64,000 nt of DNA from Octopus sinensis (GCF_006345805.1 NC_043003.1:25172001-25236000), one strand, 5' to 3'. Counted from the stretch's first letter, positions 114 to 60,255 are shown. Made by a program: numbers and translations. The notes: a model not told the origin generated them from the sequence alone.

Positions 114-1553
114 CAGCAGTTCCAACATTTTTTTGGAGAATGCACTAGTTTCATGAAAGACAATTTTTCTTCGGACCGGAGGAGGAACCACGTACATAAC
201 AAATCACAATAAAGAACATAGTATATAATTTAATTATTACATATATAGGTTTCAAATTTTGGCACAAGGCCAGTAATTTCGGGGGGTGGGTAGGGATAAA
301 TCGATTACATCCACCCTAATATTCAACAGGTACTTCTTTTATTGAAACCGAAAGGATGAAAGACAAAGTCGACCTCTGGGGAATTTGAACTCAGAACGTA
401 AAGACGGATGATATGTCTCTAAGCATGTAACCAGGCATGCTAACAATTCTGACAGCGCCTTATATAATTATTACATTTCTAATGCTTTCTACTATAGGCA
501 CAAGGTCTGAAATTTAGTGGCGGGAGGGCGGTTAAGTCGATTATACCAACCCCAAAACTCAGCAGGTACTTAATTTATCGACCGCGAAAGGATTAAAGGC
601 AAAGTCGACCTCAGCAGAATTCGAACTCAGAACGTAAAGATGGACGAAATACGGCTACGCATTTCGCCCGGCGTGCTAACGTTTCTGCCAGCTCGCCGTC
701 TTATTTAACTATTACATATCTAATACAATTGTAAGGCAACATATCTAATACAATTGTAAGCAGAATCGTTAGTACGGCGGACAAAAATGCTTAGTGATAT
801 TTCTTCTGTCTTTACGTTCTAAGCTGAAATTTCGCCGGGGTCGATTCTGTCCTTCATCCATTCGGGATCGATGAAATAAGTACCAGTTGAACACTGGGAT
901 CGAAGTAATCGACTTACCCTGCCCCCGGAATTACTAGCCCTGTCCCAAAATTTGAAAGCAATATTACGCTTTTCATTTCGAATATTATTACATTGAAACA
1001 CAAGGCGACGACCCGGCAGAGTCGTTAGCACGCCGGCCAAAATGCTTAGCGGATTTTCGTCTATTTTTATGTTCTGAGTTCAAATTTCGCCTGTTTTTGA
1101 CTTTGCCTTTTGTCCTTTCAGAATCGATAAAATAAGTACCAGTTGAGCACTTGGGTCGATGTAATCGACTATACCCTTATTCCAAAATTTTAGTCTTGTG
1201 CCAAGAGCCGAAAATAAGTATTACATTGTAATACATATAGTACGACTCAGGTGGCGAGCTTGTAGATTCGATAACTACCCGGGGCAAAATGGTTAGCGGC
1301 ATTTCGTCCACCATTACGTTCTGAGTTCAAATTCCACCGGCGTCGACTTTGCCTTTTATGATTTCAGGGTCGATAAAATAAATACCAGTTGAATACTGAA
1401 GTCGATGAAATCGACTTCTCCCTCCCCCCCACATTGCTGGCCTTATGCTAAAATTTTAAACCAATGTACGTAATACAACTTAAAAATTAAAAACTTTATT
1501 CTTTCTGTGTGCCCGGCACTAAATGAACCACGGCCGGCTAGTTGGGGGCCTTG
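114..1553. mobile_element. hAT-Charlie (MER1-like) MITE split by nested SINEs
   Basis: The left end CAGCAGTTCCAACATTTTTTTGG...TAGTTTCATGAAAGACAATTTTTC and the right end ...CCACGGCCGGCTAGTTGGGGGCCTTG resemble the two ends of MER1/Charlie3-type MITEs (recalled consensus). The internal ATTATTACATTGTAATA motif recurs between the SINEs. The 8-bp TSD is not clear. Confidence 0.55.
245..1465. mobile_element. Cluster of five tRNA-headed SINEs (family B): ~245-460 (-), ~483-702 (-), ~760-960 (+), ~1003-1215 (+), ~1249-1465 (+)
   Basis: Repeated head GGCGGCGAGCTGGCAGAATCGTTAGCACGCC with B-box-like GAGTTCAAATTCC, body GTCGACTTTGCCTTTCATCCTTTCGGGGTCGATAAA..AAGTACCAG and tail GGCCTTGTGCC. Confidence 0.85.
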
Positions 1554-7363: not shown

Positions 7364-7395
<32 letters not shown>

Positions 7396-7399
<4 letters not shown>

Positions 7400-7612
7400 T
7401 AAATAAAATATATGCATACATACAAACATATATGTACGTACCTACATCTACATGTATATATACATGCATATATAAATATATATACGTGAGTACAGGACAC
7501 CATAACTGGTGGTCCTGTACTCACGTATATATATTATATATGCATGTATAGATACATGTAGATGTAGGTACGTACATGTATGTTTGTATGTATGCATATA
7601 TTTTATTTATTA
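7396..7612. repeat. Near-perfect ~215 bp fold-back palindrome
   Basis: GTAATAAATAAAATATATGCATAC...CGTGAGTACAGGAC pairs with GTCCTGTACTCACG...GTATGCATATATTTTATTTATTAC; centre at ~7505. Confidence 0.9.
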
Positions 7613-7689
7613 CATTTTGTCTGACAGTGTGTTCGCGTCGGTTCGATTCGATTCGTCGTTTCATTCCATTTCTCTCCTCCCAGTATTGT

Positions 7690-14320: not shown

Positions 14321-16900
14321 ATCCTTAAATCTTAAAATGTTTAGCCCGAAGGCCGCGCCATGCTGGGGCACCACCGCTGAATGAGCCACACTAGTTTGTG
14401 AATCCACCTCTGATACGTGGCACTTGATCAACAAGGGAGTTCGATGCTGCTGCCCGCATCCGGTCTCCTGTCGTGAGGTAGGTTCATCTGGGACTTCCAA
14501 AAAGAAGAGATCCAGTTTAGTTTTAAAGAAACCCACCTCCACACATGTAAGTCTCTCAGGCATTTAGGGAGGAGTTGAAAAGCTGTGGTCCTCTGAAACC
14601 CAAGTGTTGCAGTATCTGGACCTGTATTTTGATGGTGATGTTGGAATCCTTGGCACCACGCAGCGGCGCCCCGTTCTGCGGTTGGAGTAACTTTGAATGC
14701 AAAGTTTGGGATAAGACCCTCCAGGATTTCCAGATGTATATTACTGCATATCTCTCCCGCCTCCGCTCCAGGGAGAGAGGTTTTAATACCTTCAGTCTTT
14801 CCCATTAGCTGACATTTTGCATTGAGACGATTTTCTTTGTGTAGCTTCTCTGAGTTGCTTCGAGTTCTGCTGTTGTTTTATATTGTGTGGGGTGGACCAA
14901 AGTTGGGGGAGCAGTAGTAGTCCAGCGGCTGAGGACAAAGTTTTCATAGGACCATCAGTGTCTCCTTCTCTCTTGTTCTGAAAGTTCGGAGAATCCATCC
15001 AGCTAGCCGTCTGCATTTATCACCAGATTAGCAATATGCATTGGAAAGATGCATCATTGCTCATGTCAATGCCCAGGTCACGCACTGATTTTGACTCAGG
15101 GATTGCAATTCTTCCTGGGCCAGTGTATCCAGTCTTCACGTCATTTACCTTTGTGTGCCAGTAGCGCAGGGCCTGGAACTTACCTGCATTAAACTGCATG
15201 TTGTTGTCCTCAGGCCACCTGTATATTGTGTCCAGCTCATGTTGCAGATGCGCAATATTTTCAGGGTTCTGTATTGCGTGGGAGACCTTTGTGTCATCTT
15301 GCATAGCTAGCAAGGGTGGTCATCGTAGCAACTGAAGGCATGTCTGAAAAGGGCCACTATGAACATCAGTGGCCCCAAGACAGTGCCCTGTGGGACACCG
15401 CTTGTTATTTGCGTTTCCCTGGAGGTGGCTCCATTGCTCACAACTGCCCTTTTTCTGTCTTTTAGGAAGTTGTGCAGCCACTCTCCAAGTTCCCGCCTAT
15501 GCCGATAGACACGCAGTTATATGACAGATCATACCATGGTCGACTTTATCAAAAAGGCTTTGCAAAGTCAAAGATATAACATCCACATTTGAGCCATTTA
15601 GTAGCTGTTCAAAACCAGTCATAGTGCTGCAGGAGCTGTGTTAGGCAGCCTCTACCTGGTCGAAATCCATGCTGGGTGTCAGACAGTAAGTCATTTTCTT
15701 CAAGGAACATGATTAGTTTCTTACGGACTATTCGTTCCATGACTTTGCTGATGTGTGAGGTCAGAGAGATAGGCCTATAATTTTAGCATCTGCTCTGCCC
15801 TCCCTTATGGATAGGGCATATTACCCCCTCTTTCAGTTGACTGGGAGCTTACCACTTGCAGAAGCTCTCTGAAAAAGAAGCTGTAGCGGTTTGCAAGGGC
15901 TCGTTTGCACGATTTGAGAAGGATCGCTGGGAATCCATCAGGTCCAGCAGCTGAGTTTGTTGTCAATCTCATCAATGGCTAGTGTGATATCATCTTGTCG
16001 ATGTTTGATGTACAATTTTTGTCTCTTTGGCCGCTGTTAAAGTGGCAAAGAATTCTTGGGTTGGTTACTTGCCTGTGTCCTAGAGGTGTAGTGAACACAA
16101 TTTGGAACTGTTCGTTCAGTTATTTCACTTATCCTCGTGGGATTTCCTGTGAGAGAGCCATCTTTTGGAAGAGAGGTCTATTCTCTGGTGCACTGTGGCT
16201 GTCTCTTTGGCAAACTTAAAGAAAGCTTTAGGGTGTGATTTTATATTTTCTATTACCCAGCTTCTTTATCTGCTCTTCCTTTTCATGGGACTGATGTAGA
16301 CTTTTTCAGTTTCCATTAGCATTCTTTCGAGCCGAGACTTCTCACACTTTTGGTGTGCTTGCTCAGGCGGTTTGCAATCCTGTCCGTCGTCTCATAGAAT
16401 CCTCCTTTCTCTAGGGATCCTGTTTATTCTTGTTGTGTGCTGGCCTGCACATTGGGACATATTTTGTCACATATGGCTTGTATTATGGACATGAAGTGTT
16501 TGGGTTCATGTTTATGTCCGGTGTGTGGAGAGACATTCAGGCCAATCATGTTTGAGGATCTCTTTCTCAATCGACTTCCAGTTGGCTTTATGAAAGTTTA
16601 AGTTGGAGAGATGGTGGGGCTTCGTATAGGCTGTGTGTCTGCGGGGGCTTTTGTTCCATACATAGACAGCTCTATTATGTTGTGATCCGAGATCATTGTC
16701 GGCATCACATTAACATTATGGATAATATCCATATTGTTTGTAAAGCAGAGATCCAGTATATTATCTGCCCTTGTTGGTTGCAGAACTATTTGCTCCATGA
16801 AAGAGGTATGTGAGATGGAGGCAGGGACTCCACCTGTGCCTGCTGATGTTTGTGTCATCCCTTGGGAGCATCTGCCCCCCAGGCCATTCCACATTGGGGA
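14321..16900 (-). mobile_element. CR1/L2-group LINE, 5'-truncated with frameshifts (end of APE endonuclease + RT + 3' end)
   Basis: APE C-terminus PTRADNILDLCF...ISDHNII (16598-16800); RT motifs NYRPISLTSH..KVMERIV, QHGFRPGRGCLTQLL, GVPQGTVLGPLMF and a frameshifted YADDTK; C-terminal EVPDEPT. Flanked by (TA)n on both sides. Confidence 0.9.
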
Positions 16901-22681: not shown

Positions 22682-23913
22682 CGAGGTCTGATAAAAAAAT
22701 ATCGGGACTGTTGCTATGGTAACGGAGTTAAAGTAGACAGAATGAAGCCGCTTCGCACAGAGATACACCTTGAACTCTGTAGCGCATACACACAAAGTTA
22801 TAAAGTTCTCACTTCCGTTGTTTGCAGCAGTGCTTGGAAGTAAAGAGTGTAGAGTGTGGCTGTTTCAGAACACCACAGAGGTTCCATCAGAGACCATAGC
22901 AGAGAAAACTGAGCAGACAATCTGTATAAAATTTTGCCAAAAGCTTGGTGATATATGCGCAGAGACCGACGCAAAGTTGCGGAAAGTATATGGAGAGGTG
23001 TGTCTGAGCCAGACACGAGTGTACGAGTGGTTCAAACATTTCTAAGATGGCCGACAAAATGTCGACAGTGACGCACGTTTTCAGAGACCAGCGGAACTGA
23101 AGAAAACATTGCAGATGTGTGAGAAGCTGTTCGGAACGACCGTCGAATCACTGTGCGTGAGTTGTCGAAGAATGTGAATATTAGTTACAGTTCAGTTCAG
23201 TTCATTCTCACTGAAGATTTGGGTATGAGACGTGTGTCTGCCAAGTTTGTGCCAAATCTGCTTTCGACTGGCCAAAAAGAAGATCGGGTTTCAGCTGTAC
23301 AAGATCTCTTTGACTGTGTTGAGGAAAAAAAAACTTTTAAAAAATGGTCATAACAGGTGATGAATCGTGGATCTATGGTTATGACACTAAAACCATGGCT
23401 CAATGGAAGACCCCGACCTCTTCGCGAAAAAGAAAGCACGAATGAGTCGAAGAAATGTGAAGACACTGTAGATACCCTTTTTCGCCTAGAATGGATAGTT
23501 CATCATGAGTATGCTTCACCTGGCCAAACAGTGAACAAGAAGTACTACCGCGACGTTTTGCGACGTTTGCGAGATACTGTTCTTCGGAAAAGGACAGAAT
23601 TGCATGCGTCCGGTCAGAGGTATCTCCATCATGACAACGCACCTGCCCATTCAGCGCAGTTTGTGCAGCAGTTTTGGGCCAAGCACAACATTCCCCAGAT
23701 CTATCAACCACGATATTCACCAGATCTCGTCCCTTGCGAATTTTTCCTCTTCCCAAAAAGGAGTTCCAGAAATTCTTCTATCAATGGAAACGATGCTGAA
23801 TAAAGTGTGCGGCTTCAGAAGGGGACCACTTCAAAGGAGACTAAATGCAAAATTGATGTCTGTTGCAGTTTTCTTTTTATTGCATTAGTCCAAATATTTT
23901 TTGTCAGACCGTG
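22682..23913 (+). mobile_element. Near full-length mariner transposon with a pseudogenised DD34D-type transposase
   Basis: TIRs CGAGGTCTGATAAAAAAATATCGGGACT / AGTCCAAATATTTTTTGTCAGACCGTG|TA; motifs EQTICIKFC, VSAKFVP, VITGDESWIYGYD, LHHDNAPAH, YSPDLVPCEFFLFPK; stops and frameshifts present. Confidence 0.93.
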
Positions 23914-25640: not shown

Positions 25641-25715
25641 ATATATATACATACATACTACATACATACATACATACATACATACACACATACATAGAAA
25701 ACTATTACGTTATTA

Positions 25716-25973
25716 TTGGGTTGGTGTATAAGTCTATTGCGATTTTTTTTTTCAACAAATTTTATTCGACAAATACAATAACAATATTTAACGAAAGTAT
25801 CTTTAAATGACGGTCTGACCGTCTGCCAAGCAATTGCTGGGAAGCAGCAAATGAAGAAGATGGTGAATATACTCCGGAATAATAATTTAAAGATGTTTTT
25901 GTTACATATTGTTACTGATTTTGTTGGATAAAATTTGTTGACAAAAAGTCGCAATAATTATGCACCAACCCAT
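25716..25973. mobile_element. Mariner-derived palindromic MITE
   Basis: TA|TTGGGTTGGTG...GCAATAATTATGCACCAACCCAT|TA (Hsmar/MADE-type TIR); ~90 bp inverted arms; centre encodes mariner C-terminus DRLPSNCWEAANEEDGEYTPE*. Confidence 0.85.
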
Positions 25974-27207
25974 TACAATCGGTAATAACATAGGTGTATG
26001 TATATATGGCATCACCTAAAACAATCGCTGAGAGTTTAAGTTTCAAGTTAAAAAGAATAAAAGCCTAACTTTCAAATATAGTTCATGATTTAATTATATT
26101 CAACAGGTGTTTTAATGTCATAAAACCTCATTATTAAAAAAAGTACTTAATTAAAATAATTAATTGATTTAAAAGTGATGTTACACATATCATCAGGAGA
26201 AAAATCCCAGCAATATGGATGAAATATCGCTTTTAAATTGATATATTTATTAATTATGCATTTTGATTATGTAATTATATAAATGATGATGGTGTATGCC
26301 ACTGAAACATCTGTTTAGTACAATTAAATTATGAGCTGTATGTGAAATCTATCCTTTTCTACTTTATACTCTAATAATAATAATAAAAATAATAATGAAT
26401 AATAATATAATAATAATAAAAAAAATATAATAATATAATTAATAATATAATAATAATGTAATAATAATAATAATAATAATAATAATTATAATAATATAAT
26501 AATGATAATAATGATAATAATAATAATAATAACAAATAATAATGATTGTAATGATAACAATAAATAATTACAATAAATGTTTTGACGGGTACTGATAAAA
26601 AAAAGATGCATTAAGATGCTACTAAATGCTGCTTACGGATTACCATAAAACTTGGATGACAAACGTTAACTTTATTATTTATGTAAAATAACTTTATAAT
26701 TTATATAAGTTATATATAAGGATTTTATAAGGATTTTAAAAATAGCGATTTAAATTTGAATTTAACATTTTTACATTTGAATTTTACAACAAATAACCAG
26801 TATTTACACTCCATGTGGATACGTTTATATCTAAAGGCAAACTGTTTGGAAGATTTGTGTAATAACCAGAGTTTCATTTGGTTGAATTCTGTAGTCGGAT
26901 AGTTCAGAGAATACATACAGAAAGCTAAACAAAACTGGAGAGTTGTGTTCATAGGTTATTAAAGTTACATCATATACGTACGCATGTACGAATGCATATA
27001 TACATATATGGATGCACGTATGTATACTTTCGTACTTATTCTATCAGTCTCTTTTGCCTAACCGCTGAATTCCAAGTATCTAAACAAACCACACCGGTTG
27101 TCAAGCGAATGCATGTATACACAACCCACACACACACACACAACATACACACACACATACACACACCACACACACACAACAGATATATATAATATATCAT
27201 ATATATA

Positions 27208-40290: not shown

Positions 40291-41026
40291 GGTATTTGAA
40301 ATCAGAACGCCAGAACCTCAAAGCATTTCTCTCTCACTCTAAAGATTCTGCAATTTCGTAACCTGCTCGACTTCGAAAGAATGATTTCCGATTTTGGCAC
40401 AAGGCCAGCAATTTTGAGGGGAGAATGTTGTTCGATACCATTGGCACCCAGTAATTAAATGGTACTGTTTGCGTGCTATCGGCCTCGAGGGAATGAAAAG
40501 TAAAAAGCAGAGTTGATCCGGACGGTATTTGAACTCAGGGCGCAAAAACCCAGAATAAATCCCGAAAGAGGTTCTCATTCTAACGATTGGCGTTGAAGGA
40601 AGAAAGCCTGAATTTGACCTCTGCTTGATCTGATATGCTTCCTATATACAAGGATAGACTATTTTACATAGACTAGATTAAGCTTTGTTGGTCCCTATAT
40701 AATCTAAAGGGGCGTCATCTTTGTTGAAAGGAGAAAAATTAGTAAGTAAAATATTTTATAAAGGTATTTAAAAACATTTAAACATTCCTGGTAACAAGTA
40801 AAACTCCCACACTCTAACAGATTAGAGAGAAATATTCTATTCTTTTGTATATATTTTTATTATCTGTCTTAATCAGGTATGTAAGAGTGACTGGCAATAC
40901 ATACAAAACAAGGTGTATGTAGGTATGTGTGTATGTATGTACACGTATATATACATACATATATACATACATATATACATACATACTTACTATATGCATA
41001 TATATATGTACACACATACATATATA

Positions 41027-41276
41027 TTGGGATGGTGCGTAATTATTGCGGCTTTTTTTTCAACAAATTTTATTCAACAAATACAATAACAACATGTAAC
41101 AAAAACATCTTTAAAGGACTCTTCCAGAGCACATTCACCATCTACTTCAATTATTTCTTCCCATTTGCTTGGTAGGCGGTCAGACCGTCACTTAAAGATG
41201 TTTTTGTTAAATATTGTTATTGTGTTTGTGGAATAAAATTTGTTGAAAAAGCCGCAATAATTATGCACCAACCCTA
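41027..41276. mobile_element. Mariner-derived palindromic MITE (same family as 25716, opposite orientation)
   Basis: TA|TTGGGATGGTGCGTAATTATTGCGGC...GCCGCAATAATTATGCACCAACCCTA|TA. Confidence 0.85.
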
Positions 41277-42069
41277 TACATATATATGAATGTATTCATA
41301 TATACAAAAATACGTATATATATTATATTACACACATACACATTCACACGCACATATGTATATATAGCAAAAGGTATATAAACTACTTGAACGATAGGTG
41401 AAAATAGCTGACATTCCAGGAGAATTTAATACCTGTTTTTTCACTGAATTGTCAGGTGTGACATTGGGAAATGTCAGGCCCACAATACAGGAAAGATATC
41501 ATATGTACACTTGGCCTCGCTTGGCCTCGGTTTCTGACAACCTGCCTTCTGTTCTGTACCGGTTGAGATTATAAAACAACAATAAAAATAAATAAAATGT
41601 AAAGAAGATCGTCTGGATTTTGTGAAGATTAGCAACTCAACCTGAAGGGAAAAAATGGAGTCGAGGGTTAGGGTTGGTTATGTTACTAGCTTTGTCGTTA
41701 GTGTTATACGGTGTCGTCGTTTGAGGCTGCGGTGGTGGACGTAGTGGTGTTAGTGGTAGTGGAAGCGATGAGGGGTGAAAAAGTGGGCGGTTGTGTGATT
41801 AAAGTAGAAAATTGAGGAAATGTTGTTTTAGCTGTTCTTATTGTTGTTTAGCCCCCGGGTAACTTCTGGTTTAGCAGACCTGTGATCAAAGGCATTCCAG
41901 CCATGACTAACTACCTATTTTTAAAGTTATCATCTAGTACAGAGGTTCTCAGTGTGGGCAGTCGAAGGACGCGTTAGGCTTTCGGGGGAGGGGGCGGTGA
42001 GGTAACAACGAATCATACTGGCCCAAAATGCAAAGCAAGTATTTTCAGCGTTTTCTTTTATTCGATTAT

Positions 42070-44100: not shown

Positions 44101-46094
44101 TAAGACATTAGAATGTGGCGAGATGGGTGAATCGTTAGTATGATGGACAAAATTCTCAGCGGTATTTCTTCCGGCTTTACGTTGAGTTCGAATGCTACCG
44201 CGGTTGACTTTGCCTTTCATCGTTTTGGGGGTCGATAAAACAAATGATAGTTGAGCACTGGAGTCTACGTAATCGACTCGATCCTCCCCACCCCAAATTG
44301 CTGCCCTTGCGCCAAAATTTGAACTAATGTGTGATTTGATGGAAAATAAACGGCTGTTTCTAGCAGGTCGTGTGACCACGTAGAAACTACTTCAAATGAG
44401 TGGTGGTAGTAGTAGTGTTGATTGTAGTAGTAGGGGTTACAATGCTACATGTCATAATGTTAGTAGGCGATAATTGTTGTTGCTGTCATTGTTGCTGTTT
44501 AGCTCAAGGTCAACCCTGAATGAACAGACATATGATCAAAGACGTTCTTCCTCTAGCCATTTCATCCTTTATCTTGACTTTGTTCAACGAAAGCCGCTCA
44601 TTGCAGTCAAGGTTAATGTTATCGAACGGTTATTGTTATCAAAATTATTAGGTCCCAAACATGTTCAGGATATTGTTATATACTCCGCTTAATGTTATAA
44701 ACTGGACACTTTGATCTGAAAGGCTTCGTCCCACAGTGATCAGAATAAGCAGCTTCTACTTCATAACTTATGCTACAAGCCGATAATGCAGCCGCTGTTG
44801 TAATTTCACACACACAGTCACTGAAAATGTCTGCAGACTTCCAGTGGCAAAAAGCTATACTATTCCTTTCAGCTATTTCTGACGATTGCCAGGGTTGCTT
44901 ACTCAACTCCCTGGAATGAAACCAATTGATAAAATGGCTGTTGTACTTTGTTTATTTTCTGACTCATGAATTTATAGACAACTATATATATATATATATA
45001 AAAGAACAAAGTATACGTACGCCCCTACATATATATATATGTAATATACAAAATGGGATAAGAACGCTAAACATCCGGACAATTAGGTGATACAAAAAGG
45101 GACAACAAAACATCCAGATAAACGATACAAAAAAACAAGGACGGGTCATTCGAAGCTTTCTATCCTCAGTCAAGAACCAGATCATCCTCGCAATTTCGGC
45201 TGATTAATCTTGAGATTGCTCCAATCTGGCCAGCCCCAAGGAAAAAACTAAGCTAAGAGCATTAGATTCCTTGGAAGAAAGCATCGAATGTATACGGAAA
45301 CAAGGACGGAAAACAGACAATGATTATTATTAGTAGTAGTATTATTTTTATTATATTTATTTTGTATTTATATTTGTGTAACATTGTCTGTTTTACCGTC
45401 CTTGTTTTCGTATACATTCGATGCTTTCTTCCAAGGGATCTAATGCTCTTAGCATTACGTAGCGGCATTTCGTCCGTATTTAGGGTTCTGAGTACAAATT
45501 TCGCCGAGGTGGACTTTGCTTCTCATCCCTTCGAGGTCGATGAGTACCGGCTGAACACTGAGGTCAATGTAATCGACAATCCCTCTCCCACAAAATTTCA
45601 GGCCTTGAGCCTTTAGTAGAAAGGATATTCATTCATAGAATTGTAATGTATACGCAGAGTCGGTAGAGTACCGGACAAAATAACTTTAGTTGGTCTTTAG
45701 TTCCGTCCTTTTACATTCTAAGTTAAAACCCTCGCCTTTCTGTTCTCCGGGGTTGATAAAATAAATACGAGTCGATGTGAACCGATTGCACACCAAGCTA
45801 GTGCTTCTTTTGAATTTAGTATCACCATTTAGAGATAGGGTTATTGTGCTTAACTAAGAGTCATTGTATAGAAGCTAGTGTCTGTCTAAGTCCATCGTTT
45901 ATGTCTATATATCTAATCTAAGTGCTCATGTGAAAGTTCCTGTGTCGGTGCGCAATGATGCAGAAACGCAAAAGGACGTCATTCATAGCCCAATGTGTTT
46001 TCACACATTTCCCCCTAGATTCGAGTTTCTGCATTAATGTGCAAATAAATTAATTTGCCATCCGTGCTTCTTCAGTTAGGGCGCTAAGATTAAT

Positions 46095-47393
46095 GCATAT
46101 TTATATAGCACGGAGGATACACGTGCTACATACTTAGTATGTTCTTAGTCTTCAGAAATGACTTGCCCGACGACCTCACGCAACACACCCTTCTATTTGC
46201 CGACGATATCAAACTGGTCGCTCCTCGCGGTAATATAGAGGATCTTCGTCGATGCCTCCACCAAATTTGGAAGTGGTCTAACGATTGGGACCTGTGTCTG
46301 AACGTGTCAAAGTGCTGTCATCTGCCTGTCGGCTCTACTCCTGCAACTCAACTTGATTTCGAGCCGGGTCGTCTGCTGCTGGAGAGGACCGATCAGGTAA
46401 AGGACCTAGGTATCTTGGTGGATTCCTCCTTTTCGCCTTCGGCCCAGTGCGTCCATGCTGCCAACAAAGCACGCGGAATTCTGTTCTTGATTCGACGGTC
46501 GTTCGGAATGCTCACAGCAGCCATATTCCTACCACTCTATGTCACGCTGGTGAGACCCATATTGGAATATGGGATTCAAGCCTCTTCTCCGTATCTCCTC
46601 AAAGACATACAGCATCTCGAAAGAGTCCAGAAGCTGGCTACCCGCATGGTTCATGGTCTCAAAAATTTGTCCTACGAAGAAAGGCTGAGGACGCTCGACC
46701 TTTATTCTCTTGAAAAACGCCGCCGCCGTAGTGATCTCATTCTCGCCCACAACATCATAAGCGGAAAGTGTAACCTCTCGAAAGAGCTGTTCTTCACTCC
46801 TGCTCCAGAGCGTCGGCTGCGGGGTCATTCCGAAAAGCTCTACCTGCGACGATTTCATCTCAATCGAAGGAGAGGAGCTTTCTCCGTCCGGGTTGCGGAT
46901 CCGTGGAATAAGCTGCCAGAGGAGATGGTGAAGATGCCGACGACCGCTTTGTTCAAAGCCTCCCTGGACCTCAAGTGGCCTGAACTCTTTACATGAACAC
47001 CACCCTGTACTTAACTCCATGTCCCCCTACATGGCCTTGCTATTTGCTTTTGAGCCAAATTAACTAACTAACTAACTTATAAATTCTAGTTTTTCAAATT
47101 CACAGTGCAAGCGCAGTCAAAGGTCAGTTCTTTTGTGTATAAACTTTATATGAAAAATATGTTAACTATTGACTTTATTACGCATGCTGGCCACCGGTAG
47201 AAAATTTCTCTAAATTTTCTACCCTTATTATTTTCATAGTAAAATTTTCGAAGTTTCGAAGCCCTTTGATACGCAGTTTTAATTTTTTATTATTATTTGC
47301 TGCTGAATGTAACTGCTCTTGCGCGGTGGATTTGAAAAAAACTAGGATGTATAAGTATGTAGCATGTTTATCCTCCGTGCTGCATAAATATGT
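46095..47393. mobile_element. Inverted-repeat MITE whose left arm is interrupted by a LINE
   Basis: GCACGGAGGATACACGTGCTACATACTTA|LINE|TAAATTCTAGTTTTTCAAATTCACAGTGCAAG matches the reverse complement of 47317-47393. Confidence 0.7.
46137..47078 (+). mobile_element. Young 5'-truncated CR1/L2/Jockey-group LINE with an open RT C-terminal ORF (46139-46996) and a (TAAC)n tail
   Basis: LLFADDIKL, KDLGILVD, LYVTLVRPILEYG, LERVQKLATRMV, LSYEERL..LYSLEKRRRRSDLI, RGH..L, FSVRVADPWNKLP; tail TAACTAACTAACTAAC. Confidence 0.93.
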
Positions 47394-49381: not shown

Positions 49382-49414
<33 letters not shown>

Positions 49415-49425
49415 ATATATATATA

Positions 49426-49469
<44 letters not shown>

Positions 49470-51081
49470 TGATAAAACGGTAAGATAACAAAAGAAAGAA
49501 AGAGACCTCAATATTATGTAAACAGAGGAAATTATCTATACAATATGTTACATTACTCGGTAGTCAAGATAAAACTCTGAGTTTCAGATGCCGAAGTGGA
49601 AATCCACAACACCATCTCTTCGGTTATCTGGCTATTTGAAAACGTTATGAAAAAATACCGTTAAAAATGAAGGGAAATTACTCTGTTATAACTCTGCTTT
49701 GCCTGCGTACTTATACATCGCTCGCATTTTTCGTCATAAAAATTATATAAAAATACATAAAAATATATAAAAATATATAAAAAATATAAAATCTTCTTGG
49801 GACATAACACAGAAAGCATGTTCTATCCGTTTTCTTTAGGGGACCAAAAACGTAACAGAAATTTAGTCACATGTGGGCATGATCCGAAAAGCTCTGTCCT
49901 TGTATTTAGACATGTGGTAGGGTCTAAGCTGCTTTTCCAGATAAGCCATCTCTCCATGTCGCATAAACCGCACCTTCCGCTGCCGTTAGTATAGGGCTTA
50001 CATCTGGCCAAAATCTTCCATTGTATGTTATAATCGACACCTTTATCTCTTAAAGACCAAATATGATTGGATAATTGTGTCGCTTTTCTTTTGTTCCAGT
50101 GCCTAAAGCTCAAAGTGTGGTTATTGAACCTGGCCTTGAAATTACCCTCTGTCAGGCCCACGTATTTCTTCGTCGAAACGGTGTCTTTAGTGGTTATAGA
50201 GTTTACGGTAGCTTCATATATGATGGTCTTGGACATGCAAGCTCCATTTAGCGGGCACAATTCTTTATTCCTGCATGAACAGCTGTTTTCTTCTTGTGTT
50301 TTTTGTATGTTATGATTGATTATGTTTTTAAAATTGGTAGTTGAACTAAAACTAATTTTTAAATTGTGTCTATTAAAGAGTTTCCTATAAGCATGGTTAA
50401 CTGGAAAATGTCTATCTATCAGTGCTAGGAAATATTTACCTATATTGAAGGCCACCTCGGGTGAGTAAGGGGGCGTAAACCAGATGACCTTCCTATTTCT
50501 ATTATTCCTTTTCCTTATTGTTGGGCTGGTGATAGGTGTATATTTTATTTTTTCGCTAAAACCACTATCTTTTAAAGCTTTATTATAAACTAGGGCAACG
50601 CTATTGAAGATGTCCTCATTAGATGAGAGGCTAGAAATCCTCTTACTAAATTTTTAACTAAATTTTTGAATACTATAGGGGGATGGCATGAACCTACATA
50701 ATATAACTTAGTCTATCATTGGGCTTCCTATAAGGCTTATAAATATTATTATTAAGATCTAAGGAAACGTCTAAGAAATTGACAACCGTCAGGTTAGTGT
50801 CTATAGTTATACTAAGTCCGAAGTGTTTCATTAACTGGATAATATCCTTCCTAAAACGATCTTGTGCTGGTCCATTTGTATTAGCTGTTAAGGCGAGGGC
50901 ATCATCTTTGTAGATGGCGAAATGTACGTTAGGGAATGTCTTACCGAAGATATCTAGGAGAAAGAGTCCAATTAGATCACAGATGCCTGCCCCATCATAT
51001 GAACCCATGCTCACATCGAAAGCGCCCTCCGTGTCGGTGTTTTTACCCACTTTGCATTCTCACTGAAAAGTAATGTCTTTC
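49470..51081 (-). mobile_element. Penelope-like element, left arm (5'-truncated RT + GIY-YIG endonuclease + 3' UTR)
   Basis: FDVSMGSYDGAGICDLIG, AIYKDDALA, VNFLDV, YKPYRKPND (RT); CSCRNKELCPLNGAC..IIYEATV..KYVGLTEGNFKARFNNH..CGLC (GIY-YIG of Penelope/Poseidon type). Confidence 0.95.
49561..49634 (-). ncRNA. Variant type I hammerhead ribozyme in the PLE 3' UTR (left arm)
   Basis: Reverse complement of 52536-52609. Confidence 0.6.
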
Positions 51082-51087
51082 TAGCAT

Positions 51088-52634
51088 GAAAGACATTACT
51101 TTTCAGTGAGAATGCAAAGTGGGTAAAAAACACCGACACGGAGGGCGCTTTCGATGTGAGCATGGGTTCATATGATGGGGCAGGCATCTGTGATCTAATT
51201 GGACTCTTTCTCCTAGATATCTTCGGTAAGACATTCCCTAACGTACATTTCGCCATCTACAAAGATGATGCCCTCGCCTTAACAGCTAATACAAATGGAC
51301 CAGCACAAGATCGTTTTAGGAAGGATATTATCCAGTTAATGAAACACTTCGGACTTAGCATAACTATAGACACTAACCTGACGGTTGTCAATTTCTTAGA
51401 CGTTTCCTTAGATCTTAATAATAATATTTATAAGCCTTATAGGAAGCCCAATGATAGACTAAGTTATATTAATGTAGGTTCATGCCATCCCCCTATAGTA
51501 TTCAAAAATTTAGTTAAAAATATTAGTAAGAGGATTTCTAGCCTCTCATCTAATGAGGACATCTTCAATAGCGTTGCCCTAGTTTATAATAAAGCTTTAA
51601 AAGATAGTGGTTTTAGCGAAAAAATAAAATATACACCTATCACCAGCCCAACAATAGGAAAAGGAATAATAGAAATAGGAAGGTCATCTGGTTTACGCCC
51701 CCTACTCACCCGAGGTGGCCTTCAATATAGGTAAATATTTCCTAGCACTGATAGATAGACATTTTCCAGTTAACCATGCTTATAGGAAACTCTTAATAGA
51801 CACAATTTAAAAATTAGTTTTAGTTCAACTACCAATTTTAAAAACATAATCAATCATAACACAAAAAAAACACAAGAAGAAAACAGCTGTTCATGCAGGA
51901 ATAAAGAATTGTGCCCGCTAAATGGAGCTTGCATGTCCAAGACCATCATATATGAAGCTACCGTAAACTCTATAACCACTAAAGACACCGTTTCGACGAA
52001 GAAATACGTGGGCCTGACAGAGGGTAATTTCAAGGCCAGGTTCAATAACCACACTTTGAGCTTTAGGCACTGGAACAAAAGAAAAGCGACACAATTATCC
52101 AATCATATTTGGTCTTTAAGAGATAAAGGTGTCGATTATAACATACAATGGAAGATTTTGGCCAGATGTAAGCCCTATACTAACGGCAGCGGAAGGTGCG
52201 GTTTATGCATGGACAGAGAGATGGCTTATCTGGAAAAGCAGCTTAGACCCTACCACATGTCTAAATACAAGGACAGAGCTTTTCGGATCATGCCCACATG
52301 TGACTAAATTTCTGTTGCGTTTTTGGTCCCCTAAAGAAAACGGATAGAACATGCTTTCTGTGTTATGTCCAAGAAGATTTTATATATTTTTATATATTTT
52401 TATATATTTTTATGTATTTTTATATAATTTTTATGACGAAAAATGCGAGCGATGTATAAGTACGCAGGCAAAGCAGAGTTATAACAGAGTAATTTCCCTT
52501 CATTTTTAACGGTATTTTTTCATAACGTTTTCAAATAGCCAGATAACCGAAGAGATGGTGTTGTGGATTTCCACTTCGGCATCTGAAACTCAGAGTTTTA
52601 TCTTGACTACCGAGTAATGTAACATATTGTATAG

Positions 52635-52637
<3 letters not shown>
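51088..52637 (+). mobile_element. Penelope-like element, right arm (mirror copy)
   Basis: Near-identical reverse complement of 49533-51081; ORFs 51156-51734, 51909-52307 and 52129-52347 are separated by single-base frameshifts. Confidence 0.95.
52536..52609 (+). ncRNA. Variant type I hammerhead ribozyme in the PLE 3' UTR (right arm)
   Basis: Stem I AGATAA/TTATCT; core CCGAAGA (U4C variant); stem II GATG..CATC with inner GTGGA/TCCAC hairpin; an extra T, then GAAACT-CAG-AGT-T (stem III and cleavage triplet). Confidence 0.6.
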
Positions 52638-52724
<87 letters not shown>

Positions 52725-53519
52725 ATATATATATTATGTATATATATTATATATTTATATATATATAAAGGAATTTAAATGGTGTTTTTTTACCTAAACT
52801 AGCTATTTCTGGCGTTCTATGGGTTGATGTACTTTGATTCTTATGAAGCCATATCATAAAATTATATATATATATATATATTCTGTTGTGTCTGGGGAGA
52901 ATCATTCTCTTTTAGTGACTTATAATTTAACGCACTCACCGGTAAAATTTCCACTCATTTCTTTCTTTATTTTTCTAAAATTTTCGTTGCGTCTTAGAAT
53001 CTTTTCAATAGTTTTGACTCTGTCCGTTATTCACACTGCGTTCTTTTTTGTTTGTTTGTGCGCATGTGTGTGGGATAGTGTGTGTGTGTGTGTGCCTATG
53101 CATGCATGCATGTATGTATGTATGTATGTATGTATGTATGTATGTATGTATGCATGCATGCATGCATGCATGTATGTATGTATGTATGTATGTATGTATG
53201 TATGTATGTATGTATGTATGTATGTATGTACGTATGTATGTGTGTATATTTGTATGTATGTATTCTGCATGTTCAAATGTTTGCGTGTCTGTGTTTGTGT
53301 GTTTTTATGAATATACAGAATACATACATACAAATATACACACATTCATACTTATATATTTATGCACACACACACATAATGCATATACACACATGCATAC
53401 TTACATACATACATAAATACATACATACATACATACATACATACATACATACATACATACATACATACATAGTCCCCTACCCCAAATTTCAGGCCTTGTG
53501 CCTATTGTAGAAAGGATTA

Positions 53520-54344: not shown

Positions 54345-56030
54345 CTTCCTTCTTTCAATTTTGCTTTCATTTCTTGCCGACAGTCTTCCCGATACTTAGG
54401 GCAAAGAAACTCACTGTATACATTGATAGGCCATTAAAATAAACACACCAGATTACTCATCTACAAAATCAAAGGAAGTTAAGTAGAGAAAATTATTTAC
54501 ACAGTTATTAATCGTTCTTGCGGCGACAATGCTCTTCTCAATAGGTGTGACGTACCAGTTAAAACAATTTTTTGCACTTCCTGCAGGGATGGTAAGCCAG
54601 GAATCATTCTCAGACAATATTCAATTCTCTTTTGAGCATTCCCAGAGCACCAACAATCTCTGGTATTGTAACCGCCTTGAGATGCCACATTTTTTCGAGT
54701 TAGATGAGCAAATCTTTATATTTTCTGAGCTTGTCGAATACTTTTGCTGAGATATGGTCACAAGGAAAACTCATATCGATCAATAAATAGATTTGATTAT
54801 CTTGGTATTTTACAACAATATCCGGTTTTATTAGCTTTGATGGTCTGTGTGTACTGGAAAACCTCAAAGAATCGTTACATTTTCTCCCTTAGTTATAGCC
54901 TTGGTATGATGCTTATATCACTTGTCAACAGTTATTGGCCAACTCTGTCATGTCTTGATTTATGCTCAACTGGCGCTAAAACTTTACATCCAGATATTAA
55001 GTGATCCACTGTTTCAATCTCATCATTGCAGAATCGGCACTTTGCATCCACGCCATTTTTCATTACATTCGTTTGATAGTTCCGGATCAATAAGCTTTGA
55101 TCTTGAGCAGCTAGGTGAAGCCCTTGTTCTCTGCCTTTAGCCCTGAGCTTCGTAGGTATGATGGATGCGCCTCTGTTCAACATCAGCGTGCTTGCTGCTG
55201 GCCACATATTTGCCTTGCAGAGGTTTCTGTTCCCAACGACCAGCCAATTATTCATACGCATTTTCCCCTTGCCATTAATTTTACCTTCTTTATAACAACA
55301 GTTGCCACACTTCCCTCAGGATGTTTATCCCGGGTATCATACATGAATTCAATAGCAAACTTCTTGCTTTCTTTCATGACAGAATGAAGCTTCTTACGCC
55401 TCTTGTGATTTTTCAACGAGTTTTAGTATTCGATCGTTAATTGTTTCAAGATATTTGGCCAGCCCAACTGTGGTGATTTTGTAAGAAAGTTCAAACTGCA
55501 TTAAGCATCAACCTCCTTGGGCTCTAGGAAGGTAAAGTCGATCCACATTTGCCTTTGGGTGGTGCATCTTTTTTAAAGTCAGCAGTTTACGTATTTTTCT
55601 ATGTATTGTCTTTATTTCACTGATATTCCAATTTAATTCATTGAAGCTATAAGTAAGAAGTGGAACGGCTAAGGAATTTATGGGTAACACCTTGTTATAT
55701 GAATTTAGCTCAGATTTTAAGAACTGTTCGAACTTTCCTATAACATTCCTTCCTGATCTTCTCTTTCATGTTTGCATGTTGAATGCCAGAGCCTTCATTT
55801 ATTCTAAAGTACTTATAAATTTGTTTCTGCTCAAGTTCTTTTATGATTGTGTCAAACATTTAACACGACTGAATTTGAGGTTTTTAATTTCCCTTTCTGG
55901 AAAGCGGCCTTGACACACTTAGCAAGATCAAACTCCATCCCGATGTCATCACTGAATGCTTCCACAATACGTAATAGGCCTTCAGGCTCATCAATGTCTC
56001 TGCCATAGAGTTTTGCGCCATCCATATAAA
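54345..56030 (-). mobile_element. Dong/R4-like retrotransposon, decayed (RT 3' part + CCHC + RLE), ending at a (TAC)n/(TAA)n tract
   Basis: FYMDGAKLYG..FSDDIGMEFDLAKC; HHPKANVDRLYLPRAQGG; AAQDQSL..CRFC..ETVDHLISGC..RHDRV; EVQKIVLTGTSHLLRRAL. Confidence 0.9.
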
Positions 56031-58734: not shown

Positions 58735-59894
58735 TATATATATATTCCTAGAAAGTTAGAGGTTGTGAATCCAGGTAGAATACCCAATTATTAATACACA
58801 AGTGTTTTTTATTGCATTGCAATTACATTACTGAATGTAATAAATGGGTGAAGGTAAAGAGTTATTTTACCATTAATTTATAGAATAATATGAAAATGGA
58901 GGGGATCAATAGGTGGTTCATCAACTTTTAGACATTATATTATATTATGTCAATTTACTTATTTATTTACTAAAATGGCAATTACCAGAATATACATACA
59001 TGTATAAGATTATACTTTACATATGAAATATATAAAGATACTAGTAATTATTAAACTATTCCTGTATGTTATATATTTTAATAATTACTAGTGTCTTTAT
59101 GTATTTTATATGTAAAACATAATCTCTTATTATAAAAGGCAGATTTTATCTGCCTCCCTTTGGGAGTTATACAAATCTACAATATAGGATTTCTTCAATT
59201 ACAATTTACCTAGCATTTTTGAGAGTACAATGCATCGCGTCATGCCAGGTCCAGTTTTTAAAATTTAAACTCCAATTAAGCAAAATTTACAGAAAACTCA
59301 CATTCTGGTGTGTGTGTCAAATGCTTTTCTTAGTCTGGTTTACACACACGCAAACGCACACACAGTGGGCAACGAATAAAATGAAAGTAAATAGCGACAG
59401 AGTGATTTGAGGAAGACTAAAGTGAAAGTATTCTGTCTATGACGCTGATAGATACATGAGTAAAATGTATGGGAAGCTAAGAGCTAAGAGTGAGTGAAAA
59501 TGTTCTTGGAAGAGAGTAATTAGTAATAAAGTAACATACACTCATACATACATACATACATACATCATACACTCATACATACACACACACACACATACAC
59601 ACACACATACATACACACACATACATACATACACCACACATACATACATACATATACATACATACATACATATACATACATACATACACACACACACATA
59701 CACACACACACAGTATTGAAGCTTGAGAACAATCAGATACATTTGCAACACATCTGTGAAAATATTATTGTTCACACACATACATATACAATATACATAC
59801 AGACGACAGACAGATAGACACACACACACACACACACACATGATCCAGCATGGCCACAACCTCAAGGCTGAAACATATAAAAGAATAACAGAAT

Positions 59895-60255
59895 ATAAAT
59901 GTGTGCAAAGTACAAGAAATATTAATGCAGTATATGGGGATTGGACAATAAGCGTAAGGCAGTGTCAATGGTGGTTCCAGAAATCCGAGCCATAACTACA
60001 GCCTAGAAGACGAGCCTCATCCTGAAAGATCTGTAGAACTCGACAAGGACATCCTGAAAACCCTGGTGGAACAAAATATCATCGTAACTGTTGAGGAACT
60101 AGCAGAGAAGCTTGGATTTGGTCATTCAACCATTCATTGACACCTGTGTGCTATCGGAAAAGTCAGCAAATTGGGTCAATGGGTTCCTCACGAACTTTCC
60201 GAGTCTAATTGCATGCAGAGAGTGAATGTATGCTTTTCTTTGCTGTCATATCTCA
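59895..60255 (+). pseudogene. Mariner transposase N-terminal fragment
   Basis: STRNINAVYGDWTISVRQCQWWFQK..SLEDEP..VEELAEKLGFGHSTIH*HL..IGKVSKLGQWVPHELS. Confidence 0.85.

What the first reader, a model, noticed from the sequence alone, without database searches (positions are those of the whole stretch)
49533..52637. 3.1 kb palindrome formed by two head-to-head Penelope-like elements truncated at the same point
Seen: two ~1.55 kb arms are near-identical reverse complements joined by a 6-nt loop (CTTTC-TAGCAT-GAAAG, 51077-51092). Both 3' ends face outward into (TA)n tracts, and both arms share the YKDD catalytic variant. Known: PLEs often carry inverted pLTRs at the 5' end. Unusual here: the inverted part includes the whole RT C-terminus and GIY-YIG, and both arms are truncated symmetrically. 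Inference: fold-back (self-primed) second-strand synthesis during integration. If transcribed, it would form a ~1.5 kb dsRNA hairpin (an ADAR or siRNA substrate) with a ribozyme fold at each end. Many arm differences are 1-nt indels, which is also what an assembly artefact would look like.
Basis: partly seen in the sequence, partly recalled or inferred. Interest (0 to 1): 0.75.

Follow-up and report, generated by a model that had tools for sequence, protein, structure and literature searches.

The report
Twin-primed Penelope retrotransposon palindrome
This 3-kb mirror-image stretch is one insertion of a Penelope-type jumping gene whose copies usually land as back-to-back pairs, so it is ordinary in kind, but the shape of the pairs suggests that both halves are likely copied side by side from one RNA and then joined, rather than by one copy folding back on itself.

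Summary
The palindrome is in the assembly (arms 99% alike). It is one insertion of a young Hydra-type Penelope-like element (2,590-nt unit, 1,443 exact 3'-end hits). Two corrections: the 6-nt 'loop' is element sequence, and the left arm runs 66 nt further out (the PLE 'tail', to 49467). The layout is the family norm. Of 68 unselected loci, 52 are head-to-head pairs, all 52 with a full tail on exactly one arm. 22 of 45 simple pairs are symmetric within 25 nt, and other 2.4-3 kb symmetric pairs exist. Paired arms share rare variants (40 versus 0.33 expected). In 10 of 45 pairs the untailed arm is the longer, so neither arm can be a copy of the other. Fold-back of one cDNA therefore fails as the family rule, though it fits this locus alone. 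Best reading (inferred): two cDNAs primed from both target strands at two fixed start sites on one RNA, then end-joined. An artefact is unlikely but was not excluded with reads. Transcription, editing and ribozyme activity are not shown. Head-to-head PLE pairs and one-sided tails are published, and this scan noted such palindromes elsewhere in this genome.

The parts
49392..49466 (.). Left (TA)n target tract
49467..49532 (-).
   Evidence: the same tail lies between units in tandem copy L031
49467..51088 (-). Left arm: 5'-truncated Hydra-type PLE copy (RT C-terminal half, linker, GIY-YIG, 3' UTR, pLTR, tail); unit positions 1251-2877
49567..49629 (-). Hammerhead-like motif of the left arm (variant core CCGAAGAG; predicted cut next to 49572)
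   Evidence: layout compared by eye with Hydra-1_oBim HHR in the PMC8557442 supplement
50901..50912 (-). YKDD RT motif, left arm
51082..51088 (.). Head-to-head joint: 6 unpaired bases (TAGCAT) that are element sequence, plus 1 shared base; a weak native quasi-palindrome (5 of 6 pairs)
51088..52637 (+). Right arm: 5'-truncated copy of the same element, unit positions 1258-2810, ending without a tail
51258..51269 (+). YKDD RT motif, right arm
51795..52304 (+). Linker CxCX5C and GIY-YIG endonuclease region (frameshifted in this assembly)
52541..52603 (+). Hammerhead-like motif of the right arm (variant core; predicted cut before 52598)
52638..52767 (.). Right (TA)n target tract

Best explanation
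The palindrome is a single insertion of a Hydra-type Penelope-like retrotransposon into a (TA)n tract, and its two arms were likely made as two separate first-strand cDNAs from one RNA and then joined at their 3' ends. Shown: one arm ends with the tail and the other without; both arms carry the same rare variants; this layout is the family norm. Inferred steps: (1) the element protein, probably as a dimer, nicks both strands of (TA)n; (2) one nick primes reverse transcription at the tail-end site and the other at the site 67 nt further in, both with ATA|AAT context; (3) both enzymes copy the same RNA, the trailing one displacing the leading cDNA (PLE RTs lack RNase H, recalled); (4) when both run off the same broken or natural RNA 5' end the arms are near-equal, as here, and when one stops early they are unequal; (5) host end-joining links the two cDNA 3' ends through 0-8 nt of microhomology or short templated inserts and fills the gaps. 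This copy lacks the first ~45% of the unit and cannot encode the protein.
For: Unselected sample (all 68 loci behind the first 100 of 1,443 motif hits; fetched): 52 of 68 are two-armed, 52 of 52 with a full tail on exactly one arm (L068's second arm ends 8 nt into the tail and was counted untailed). Length-selected sample: 34 of 36 by script, 35 of 36 after L119 is read by its outer ends; L115 is a true exception. The untailed arm is longer by more than 25 nt in 10 of 45 unselected and 23 of 73 simple pairs, so the arms are not nested. Near-symmetric offsets fall on both sides (8 negative, 5 zero, 9 positive). Symmetry is enriched: 22 of 45 versus 6.4 in shuffles, and 5 of 28 versus 0.76 for pairs with a longer arm, p=0.0005. 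In 37 pairs with at least 250 nt of overlap the arms share 40 rare variants (0.33 expected) and differ at 4 segregating sites (107 expected); the 14 untailed-longer pairs show the same (13 versus 0.02). Centres with 0-2 unpaired bases exist (L072, L089, L066, L026, L062), too tight for a priming loop (textbook minimum about 3). Of 73 joints, 44 have 1-8 nt overlap, 8 are blunt and 21 have inserts, several copied from adjacent sequence. In vitro, the anole PLE nicks and extends both strands, starts at two internal sites that bound the tail, and is predicted to be a dimer (PMC11167929).
Against: PMC11167929 saw no difference in start site between the two target strands, whereas 52 of 52 needs the sites to be split one per strand. 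This locus on its own fits fold-back (tailed arm longer, native quasi-palindrome). Sharing between arms could be inflated by gene conversion or by long reads aligned across the palindrome in either orientation. Two RNAs from one donor would also share variants. 15 of the 22 symmetric unselected pairs sit in one short-arm hotspot (unit 2690-2730). Overlap lengths come from BLAST ends and can be too long by a few bases (this locus: 6 by script, 1 exact). 16 of 68 loci are single-armed. The sample comes from one assembly, mostly contig C1.
Confidence: 0.58

Rival explanations
1. Fold-back of the first-strand cDNA: the tailed cDNA stopped in the RT gene, its 3' end paired back on a weak quasi-palindrome, and it was copied back to the untailed end, which joined the target.
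For: At this locus the right arm lies wholly within the left arm, and the native minus strand offers TCTTTC/GGAAGA (5 of 6 pairs) around a 6-nt loop. Both arms share private variants. In 26 of 73 simple pairs the tailed arm is the longer by more than 25 nt.
Against: It cannot give the 23 of 73 pairs with a longer untailed arm or the 10 of 24 near-symmetric pairs with a negative offset, because an untailed cDNA holds no tail to copy. It cannot give zero-loop centres. The native hairpin is only -0.5 kcal/mol. A second mechanism would be needed for about half of the family.
Confidence: 0.15
2. Self-priming on an antisense RNA (proposed in PMC3846280): an antisense transcript folds back at its 3' end, is copied into an RNA/DNA hairpin, and the endonuclease then trims one end at the tail site and the other at the inner site during integration.
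For: Explains one template, head-to-head polarity and a tail on either arm. Published as the best reading of junction palindromes (Discussion). PMC8557442 ascribes the tail to EN-mediated resolution.
Against: Needs a loop of at least about 3 nt and real base pairing at the joint, but 8 of 73 joints are blunt, 21 carry inserts, and several centres have 0-2 unpaired bases. In vitro the tail arises from two RT start sites on sense RNA. No antisense transcript is shown here.
Confidence: 0.13
3. Twin priming from two different RNA molecules of the same donor copy, each carried by one subunit, with symmetric ends arising only from shared stop points.
For: Explains non-nested arms, end-joining signatures and shared variants if one donor dominates in a cell.
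Against: Long symmetric pairs end at different places (unit ~1255, 1275, 1395, 1570, 2198, 2475), which independent RNAs would rarely match: 5 of 28 versus 0.76 expected. Only 4 discordant sites versus 107 expected, although several haplotypes are young.
Confidence: 0.09
4. Assembly artefact from a fold-back (chimeric) long read.
For: 8 of 13 arm differences are single-base indels.
Against: The flanks are not mirrored: the left flank is single-copy, and the first 95 nt of the right flank match nowhere else. The two outer ends differ exactly as in 52 of 52 other pairs, which a mirrored read would not produce. The indel load is ordinary for this assembly. The same architecture is published for other animals.
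Confidence: 0.05

Closest known systems
Hydra clade of C-terminal EN+ Penelope-like elements, e.g. Hydra-1_Obim (PMC8557442; passages, section 11 and supplement search hits seen)
   Same: Short unit, RWK and DKT motifs, CxCX5C linker, no CCHH, CxxC..E..N..CxH in the EN, (TA)n targets. By eye, long identical stretches with Hydra-1_Obim (RMRWKAFFFD, NPKCRLINPAKSE, QFDIVDFY, HARKTLLF) and the same HHR layout.
   Different: A separate family: YKDD versus YRDD and many substitutions (by eye; no alignment or tree made). HHR core CCGAAGAG versus ctgaagag. A clear pLTR and tail are present, where Hydra-1_Obim was listed as 'no pLTR'. The tail is 67 nt rather than 30-40.
Insertion units of EN+ PLEs with an adjacent inverted 5'-truncated copy and one-sided tail (PMC8557442 Fig. 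2 legend; PMC3846280 passages and Discussion)
   Same: Head-to-head inverted copy, tail at one end only, palindrome at the inverted junction.
   Different: Those passages give no counts. Here the one-tail rule, non-nested arms, shared haplotypes and symmetry excess are counted, and they argue against self-priming.
Poseidon of Anolis (PAc) in vitro (PMC11167929; parts 1-2 of 4 read)
   Same: AT-rich targets, both strands nicked and extended, two internal RT start sites bounding the tail, HHR in the pLTR, predicted dimer.
   Different: A different clade. In the parts read it does not explain inverted pairs and saw no strand-specific choice of start site.
LINE-1 twin priming (original model recalled; passages in bioRxiv 10.1101/2024.12.14.628481)
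   Same: Two target 3' ends prime two cDNAs on one RNA, which are then joined into an inverted structure.
   Different: In L1 the two cDNAs copy adjacent, non-overlapping parts of the RNA (the example shows adjacent segments). Here both start within 67 nt of the 3' end and overlap almost fully, giving palindromes, and this is the majority outcome.

Membership tests
EN+ Penelope-like elements | Single ORF with RT and C-terminal GIY-YIG endonuclease | tested here: met
   Sister copies have 703-aa and 616-aa open frames covering both. Pfam GIY-YIG is weak on the window piece (E=0.0043); no Pfam hit on the long frames.
EN+ Penelope-like elements | Partial tandems forming pLTRs | tested here: met
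   L031 and L119 hold a truncated copy in tandem with a whole 2,590-nt unit.
EN+ Penelope-like elements | Optional tail at one end | tested here: met
   67-nt tail on exactly one arm in 52 of 52 unselected pairs and at this locus; longer than the 30-40 nt quoted in PMC8557442.
EN+ Penelope-like elements | Adjacent inverted 5'-truncated copy | tested here: met
   52 of 68 loci.
EN+ Penelope-like elements | Target-site duplication | tested here: inconclusive
   Both flanks are (TA)n, so a duplication cannot be read.
Hydra clade | Short element (under 3 kb), single ORF | tested here: met
   Unit 2,590 nt.
Hydra clade | RWK motif and DKT in place of DKG | tested here: met
   KRMRWKAFF and FSDKTKN in L045.
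Hydra clade | Linker CxCX5C | tested here: met
   CSCRNKELC in both arms.
Hydra clade | CCHH absent; CxxC and CxH around conserved E and N | tested here: met
   CGLCDMERW...LNTRTELFGSCPH in the left arm and L042, read by eye.
Hydra clade | Insertion into (TA)n | tested here: met
   Both flanks TA-rich in 49 of 52 unselected pairs.
Hydra clade | Hammerhead ribozyme in the pLTR | tested here: inconclusive
   Same layout as Hydra-1_oBim, but the core has C at conserved U4 in 139 of 141 matches (132 read CCGAAGAG). No Rfam hammerhead hit. MFE fold is not the hammerhead, z=-1.1. Core variants are known in PLEs (PMC4209133 passages). Activity untested.
Hydra clade | Placement in the RT phylogeny | not tested
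   Published Hydra sequences were visible only as supplement text and were compared by eye; no tree was built.

The most novel reading that the evidence does not exclude
Penelope-like elements integrate mainly by symmetric twin priming. A dimer nicks both target strands, assigns one of two fixed RT start sites to each strand, copies one RNA twice, and leaves host end-joining to fuse the two cDNAs head to head. No element-made second strand is needed, and palindromes are the default product. This would replace self-priming as the explanation of inverted pLTRs and the one-sided tail.
Probability: 0.45. Interest if true: 0.65.

Novelty: new member of a known kind. Interest (0 to 1): 0.36.

Why it matters
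The locus itself is an ordinary dead copy. The family matters more. How PLEs form their tandem/inverted ends is stated as open in PMC8557442, and this young, abundant family turns that question into countable rules: one tail per pair, one haplotype per pair, arms not nested, excess symmetry. These rules give a direct test in the existing anole in vitro system. If the ratio from 68 loci holds genome-wide, this one family has left several hundred near-perfect inverted repeats (extrapolation). Those that lie in transcripts would form long dsRNA, which was not tested here.

Tried and rejected
Read support: the look-up of sequencing runs on the joint gave 24 runs, each holding 1 of 4 sampled words, with no RNA holder listed. 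Contigs of 7 runs (X1-X6, X18) were laid on the joint region and none bridged it. The X4 signal proved to be another insertion's joint (table 8 was cut). Contigs drop single-locus variants and the individuals may differ, so this is no evidence either way. Rfam: 66 weak matches, all below gathering score (mostly miRNA-type hairpins on microsatellites and on the joint) and no hammerhead family. ADAR footprint in templates: singleton A>G 35 on 905 A versus T>C 36 on 707 T, and 2 versus 3 among variants shared only by paired arms, so no excess. Host gene context: 150 frames (149 of the longest of 275 filtered frames, plus the 295-aa RT frame) gave only transposon domains in Pfam; short exons would be missed, so intronic position is open. 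My first idea of a fixed family 5' end at query position 4 was wrong: those copies continue upstream. YKDD as a sign of shared origin was rejected (55 of 55). Sequence look-up in earlier findings returned nothing. Literature searches listed no paper that proposes twin priming for PLE inverted pairs. I saw only listings for most hits, subscription papers are not covered, parts 3-4 and the supplements of PMC11167929 were not read, and bioRxiv supplements are closed, so a prior proposal may exist.

Full report
Observation. The two arms are real in the assembly: 49533-51081 and 51088-52637 are reverse complements with 13 differences outside the centre (4 substitutions, 8 single-base indels, one local rearrangement). 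The window lies at C7:25172001-25236000 of a 2.72-Gb assembly; the host was not identified by any tool. Longer sister copies show that the 6-nt loop is element sequence: the left arm reaches unit position 1251 and the right arm 1258, with one shared base. The left arm also continues outward for 66 nt to 49467, a segment the right arm lacks; both then meet (TA)n.

What the element is. A 26-nt 3' motif has 1,443 exact matches in the genome and none for the reversed control; two mid-element motifs have 399 and 293, as expected for heavy 5' truncation. Tandem copies define a 2,590-nt unit with a pLTR and a 67-nt tail. Sister copies hold 703-aa and 616-aa open frames, and most long copies are 98-99% alike, so the family is young. 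The protein has the motifs listed for the Hydra clade in section 11 of PMC8557442: RWK, DKT, CxCX5C, no CCHH, CxxC and CxH. By eye it resembles Hydra-1_Obim in that paper's supplement but is a different family; no tree was built. The pLTR holds a hammerhead-like motif with the same layout as Hydra-1_oBim but with C at the conserved U4 (core CCGAAGAG in 132 of 141 matches); Rfam does not report it.

Is the layout unusual? No. I fetched all 68 loci behind the first 100 motif matches (contig C1 and the start of C2). 52 are head-to-head pairs (45 simple, 7 with an extra internal segment) and 16 are single-armed. All 52 have a full tail on exactly one arm; L068's other arm ends 8 nt into the tail and was counted as untailed. 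In 43 further loci chosen for length, 36 are pairs: 34 follow the rule by script, L119 follows it by its outer ends, and L115 has two tails (the pair scored for L038 is an older neighbour in that locus). Both flanks are TA-rich in 49 of 52. Of 45 simple unselected pairs, 22 are symmetric within 25 nt (6.4 in shuffles). 15 of these lie in a short-arm hotspot, and among pairs with a longer arm 5 of 28 are symmetric (0.76 expected, p=0.0005). L054, L065 and L026 are 2.4-3 kb palindromes like this one. The architecture is published: PMC8557442 describes the adjacent inverted truncated copy and the one-sided tail (passages), and PMC3846280 describes head-to-head junction palindromes and proposes self-priming (passages and Discussion). 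Earlier notes of this scan report similar palindromes from other PLE families in this genome.

One template. At this locus both arms carry two variants against the family: one found in 3 of 46 arms and one only in these 2 of 73. Over 37 pairs with at least 250 nt of overlap (this locus included), paired arms share 40 rare variants against 0.33 expected from unrelated arms, and differ at 4 segregating sites against 107 expected (one search gave the same picture on 28 pairs). Gene conversion or cross-orientation read mapping could add to this and was not excluded.

Fold-back does not fit the family. If the second arm were copied from the first cDNA, it would lie wholly inside the first, so the tailed arm would always be the longer. 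Instead the untailed arm is longer by more than 25 nt in 10 of 45 unselected and 23 of 73 simple pairs, and small offsets fall evenly on both sides. These pairs still share haplotypes (14 pairs, 13 rare shared variants against 0.02). Several centres have 0-2 unpaired bases (L072, L089, L066, L026, L062), which suits two molecules annealing at self-complementary ends better than a loop. Of 73 joints, 44 show 1-8 nt overlap, 8 are blunt and 21 carry inserts, some copied from nearby sequence. Among the 52 without inserts, 35 have 2 nt or more of overlap, against 18% at random, though BLAST ends can overstate overlap. Microhomology with templated inserts is the recalled signature of polymerase-theta end-joining. 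For this locus alone fold-back stays possible: the tailed arm is the longer, and the native strand has a 5-of-6 quasi-palindrome, though of only -0.5 kcal/mol.

Best mechanism (inferred). The anole PLE in vitro nicks and extends both target strands, starts at two internal RNA sites that bound the tail, and is predicted to be a dimer (PMC11167929, parts 1-2 of 4). Joining that to the counts above: each target strand primes one cDNA, one from each start site, on the same RNA. Both run off the same RNA 5' end (symmetric pairs) or one stops early (asymmetric pairs), and end-joining fuses them. The weak point is that the in vitro work saw no strand-specific choice of start site. It works like LINE-1 twin priming (passages; original model recalled) but with overlapping rather than adjacent cDNAs.

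Artefact? The left flank is single-copy; the first 95 nt of the right flank match nowhere else, and the rest is another repeat. The two outer ends differ in the family-specific way, which a mirrored read would not give. Private indels run at 2.0 and 4.1 per kb in the two arms against a median of 1.0 in 99 long arms (64th and 80th percentile), so they look like ordinary consensus noise or decay. Direct read support was not obtained (see Tried and rejected).

Function. This copy lacks the first ~45% of the unit. No host exon was found in 150 frames scanned, and there is no A>G strand excess in the family. The dsRNA, siRNA and editing ideas are untested.

Verdict. A real, ordinary insertion product of a new Hydra-type PLE family. 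The family-wide anatomy makes an open mechanistic question testable and favours twin priming on one RNA (0.58) over fold-back (0.15), antisense self-priming (0.13), two RNAs (0.09) and artefact (0.05). Interest 0.36.

Noticed in passing
family unit positions 2690-2730 (window about 52517-52557): Hotspot of arm 5' ends: 37 of 125 arms in the unselected sample start here, just upstream of or at the start of the ribozyme motif; a candidate RNA 5' end.
   Followed up: partly
family unit positions 2769-2778 (window 52596-52605): 5 of 125 arm starts (two are the duplicated L055 unit) fall at or just after the predicted ribozyme cut at 2771, versus 5 in the 38 nt before; a weak hint of cleavage despite the variant core.
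   Followed up: partly
window 52633-52637 and 49467-49471: Both fixed outer ends have the same context in the unit, ATA|AAT, which could pair with a (TA)n primer.
   Followed up: no
window 7394-7615: 222-nt, 95% palindrome next to (TA)n with a GC-richer centre and short loop; possibly a short two-armed insertion of another family.
   Followed up: no
window 301-1168, 25714-25975, 41001-41304, 45252-45453, 59007-59125: Further decayed self-palindromes, 66-82% identity.
   Followed up: no
window 52863-53055: Abundant repeat (about 90% identity, 2,621 candidates) abutting a short (TA)n; at C3:16673527-16673907 two copies lie close together on opposite strands.
   Followed up: no
window 62059 (+) and 43201 (-): Minimal hammerhead-like cores (CTGAAGAAG...CGAAAC) from other repeats.
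   Followed up: no
window 22746-23800, 59720-59992, 46109-46993, 15310-15516, 54935-55315: Remnants of mariner-type transposases and of LINE-type reverse transcriptases.
   Followed up: no
L048, L050, L017, L112, L120: Pairs with an extra inverted or shifted internal segment at the joint, suggesting template switches during joining.
   Followed up: no
L055 (C1:24752600-24756200): A two-armed unit present twice in tandem with an identical joint; a local duplication or an assembly duplication.
   Followed up: no
window 52209-52216: Local reordering of letters in the right arm found in no other copy; likely a consensus error.
   Followed up: partly
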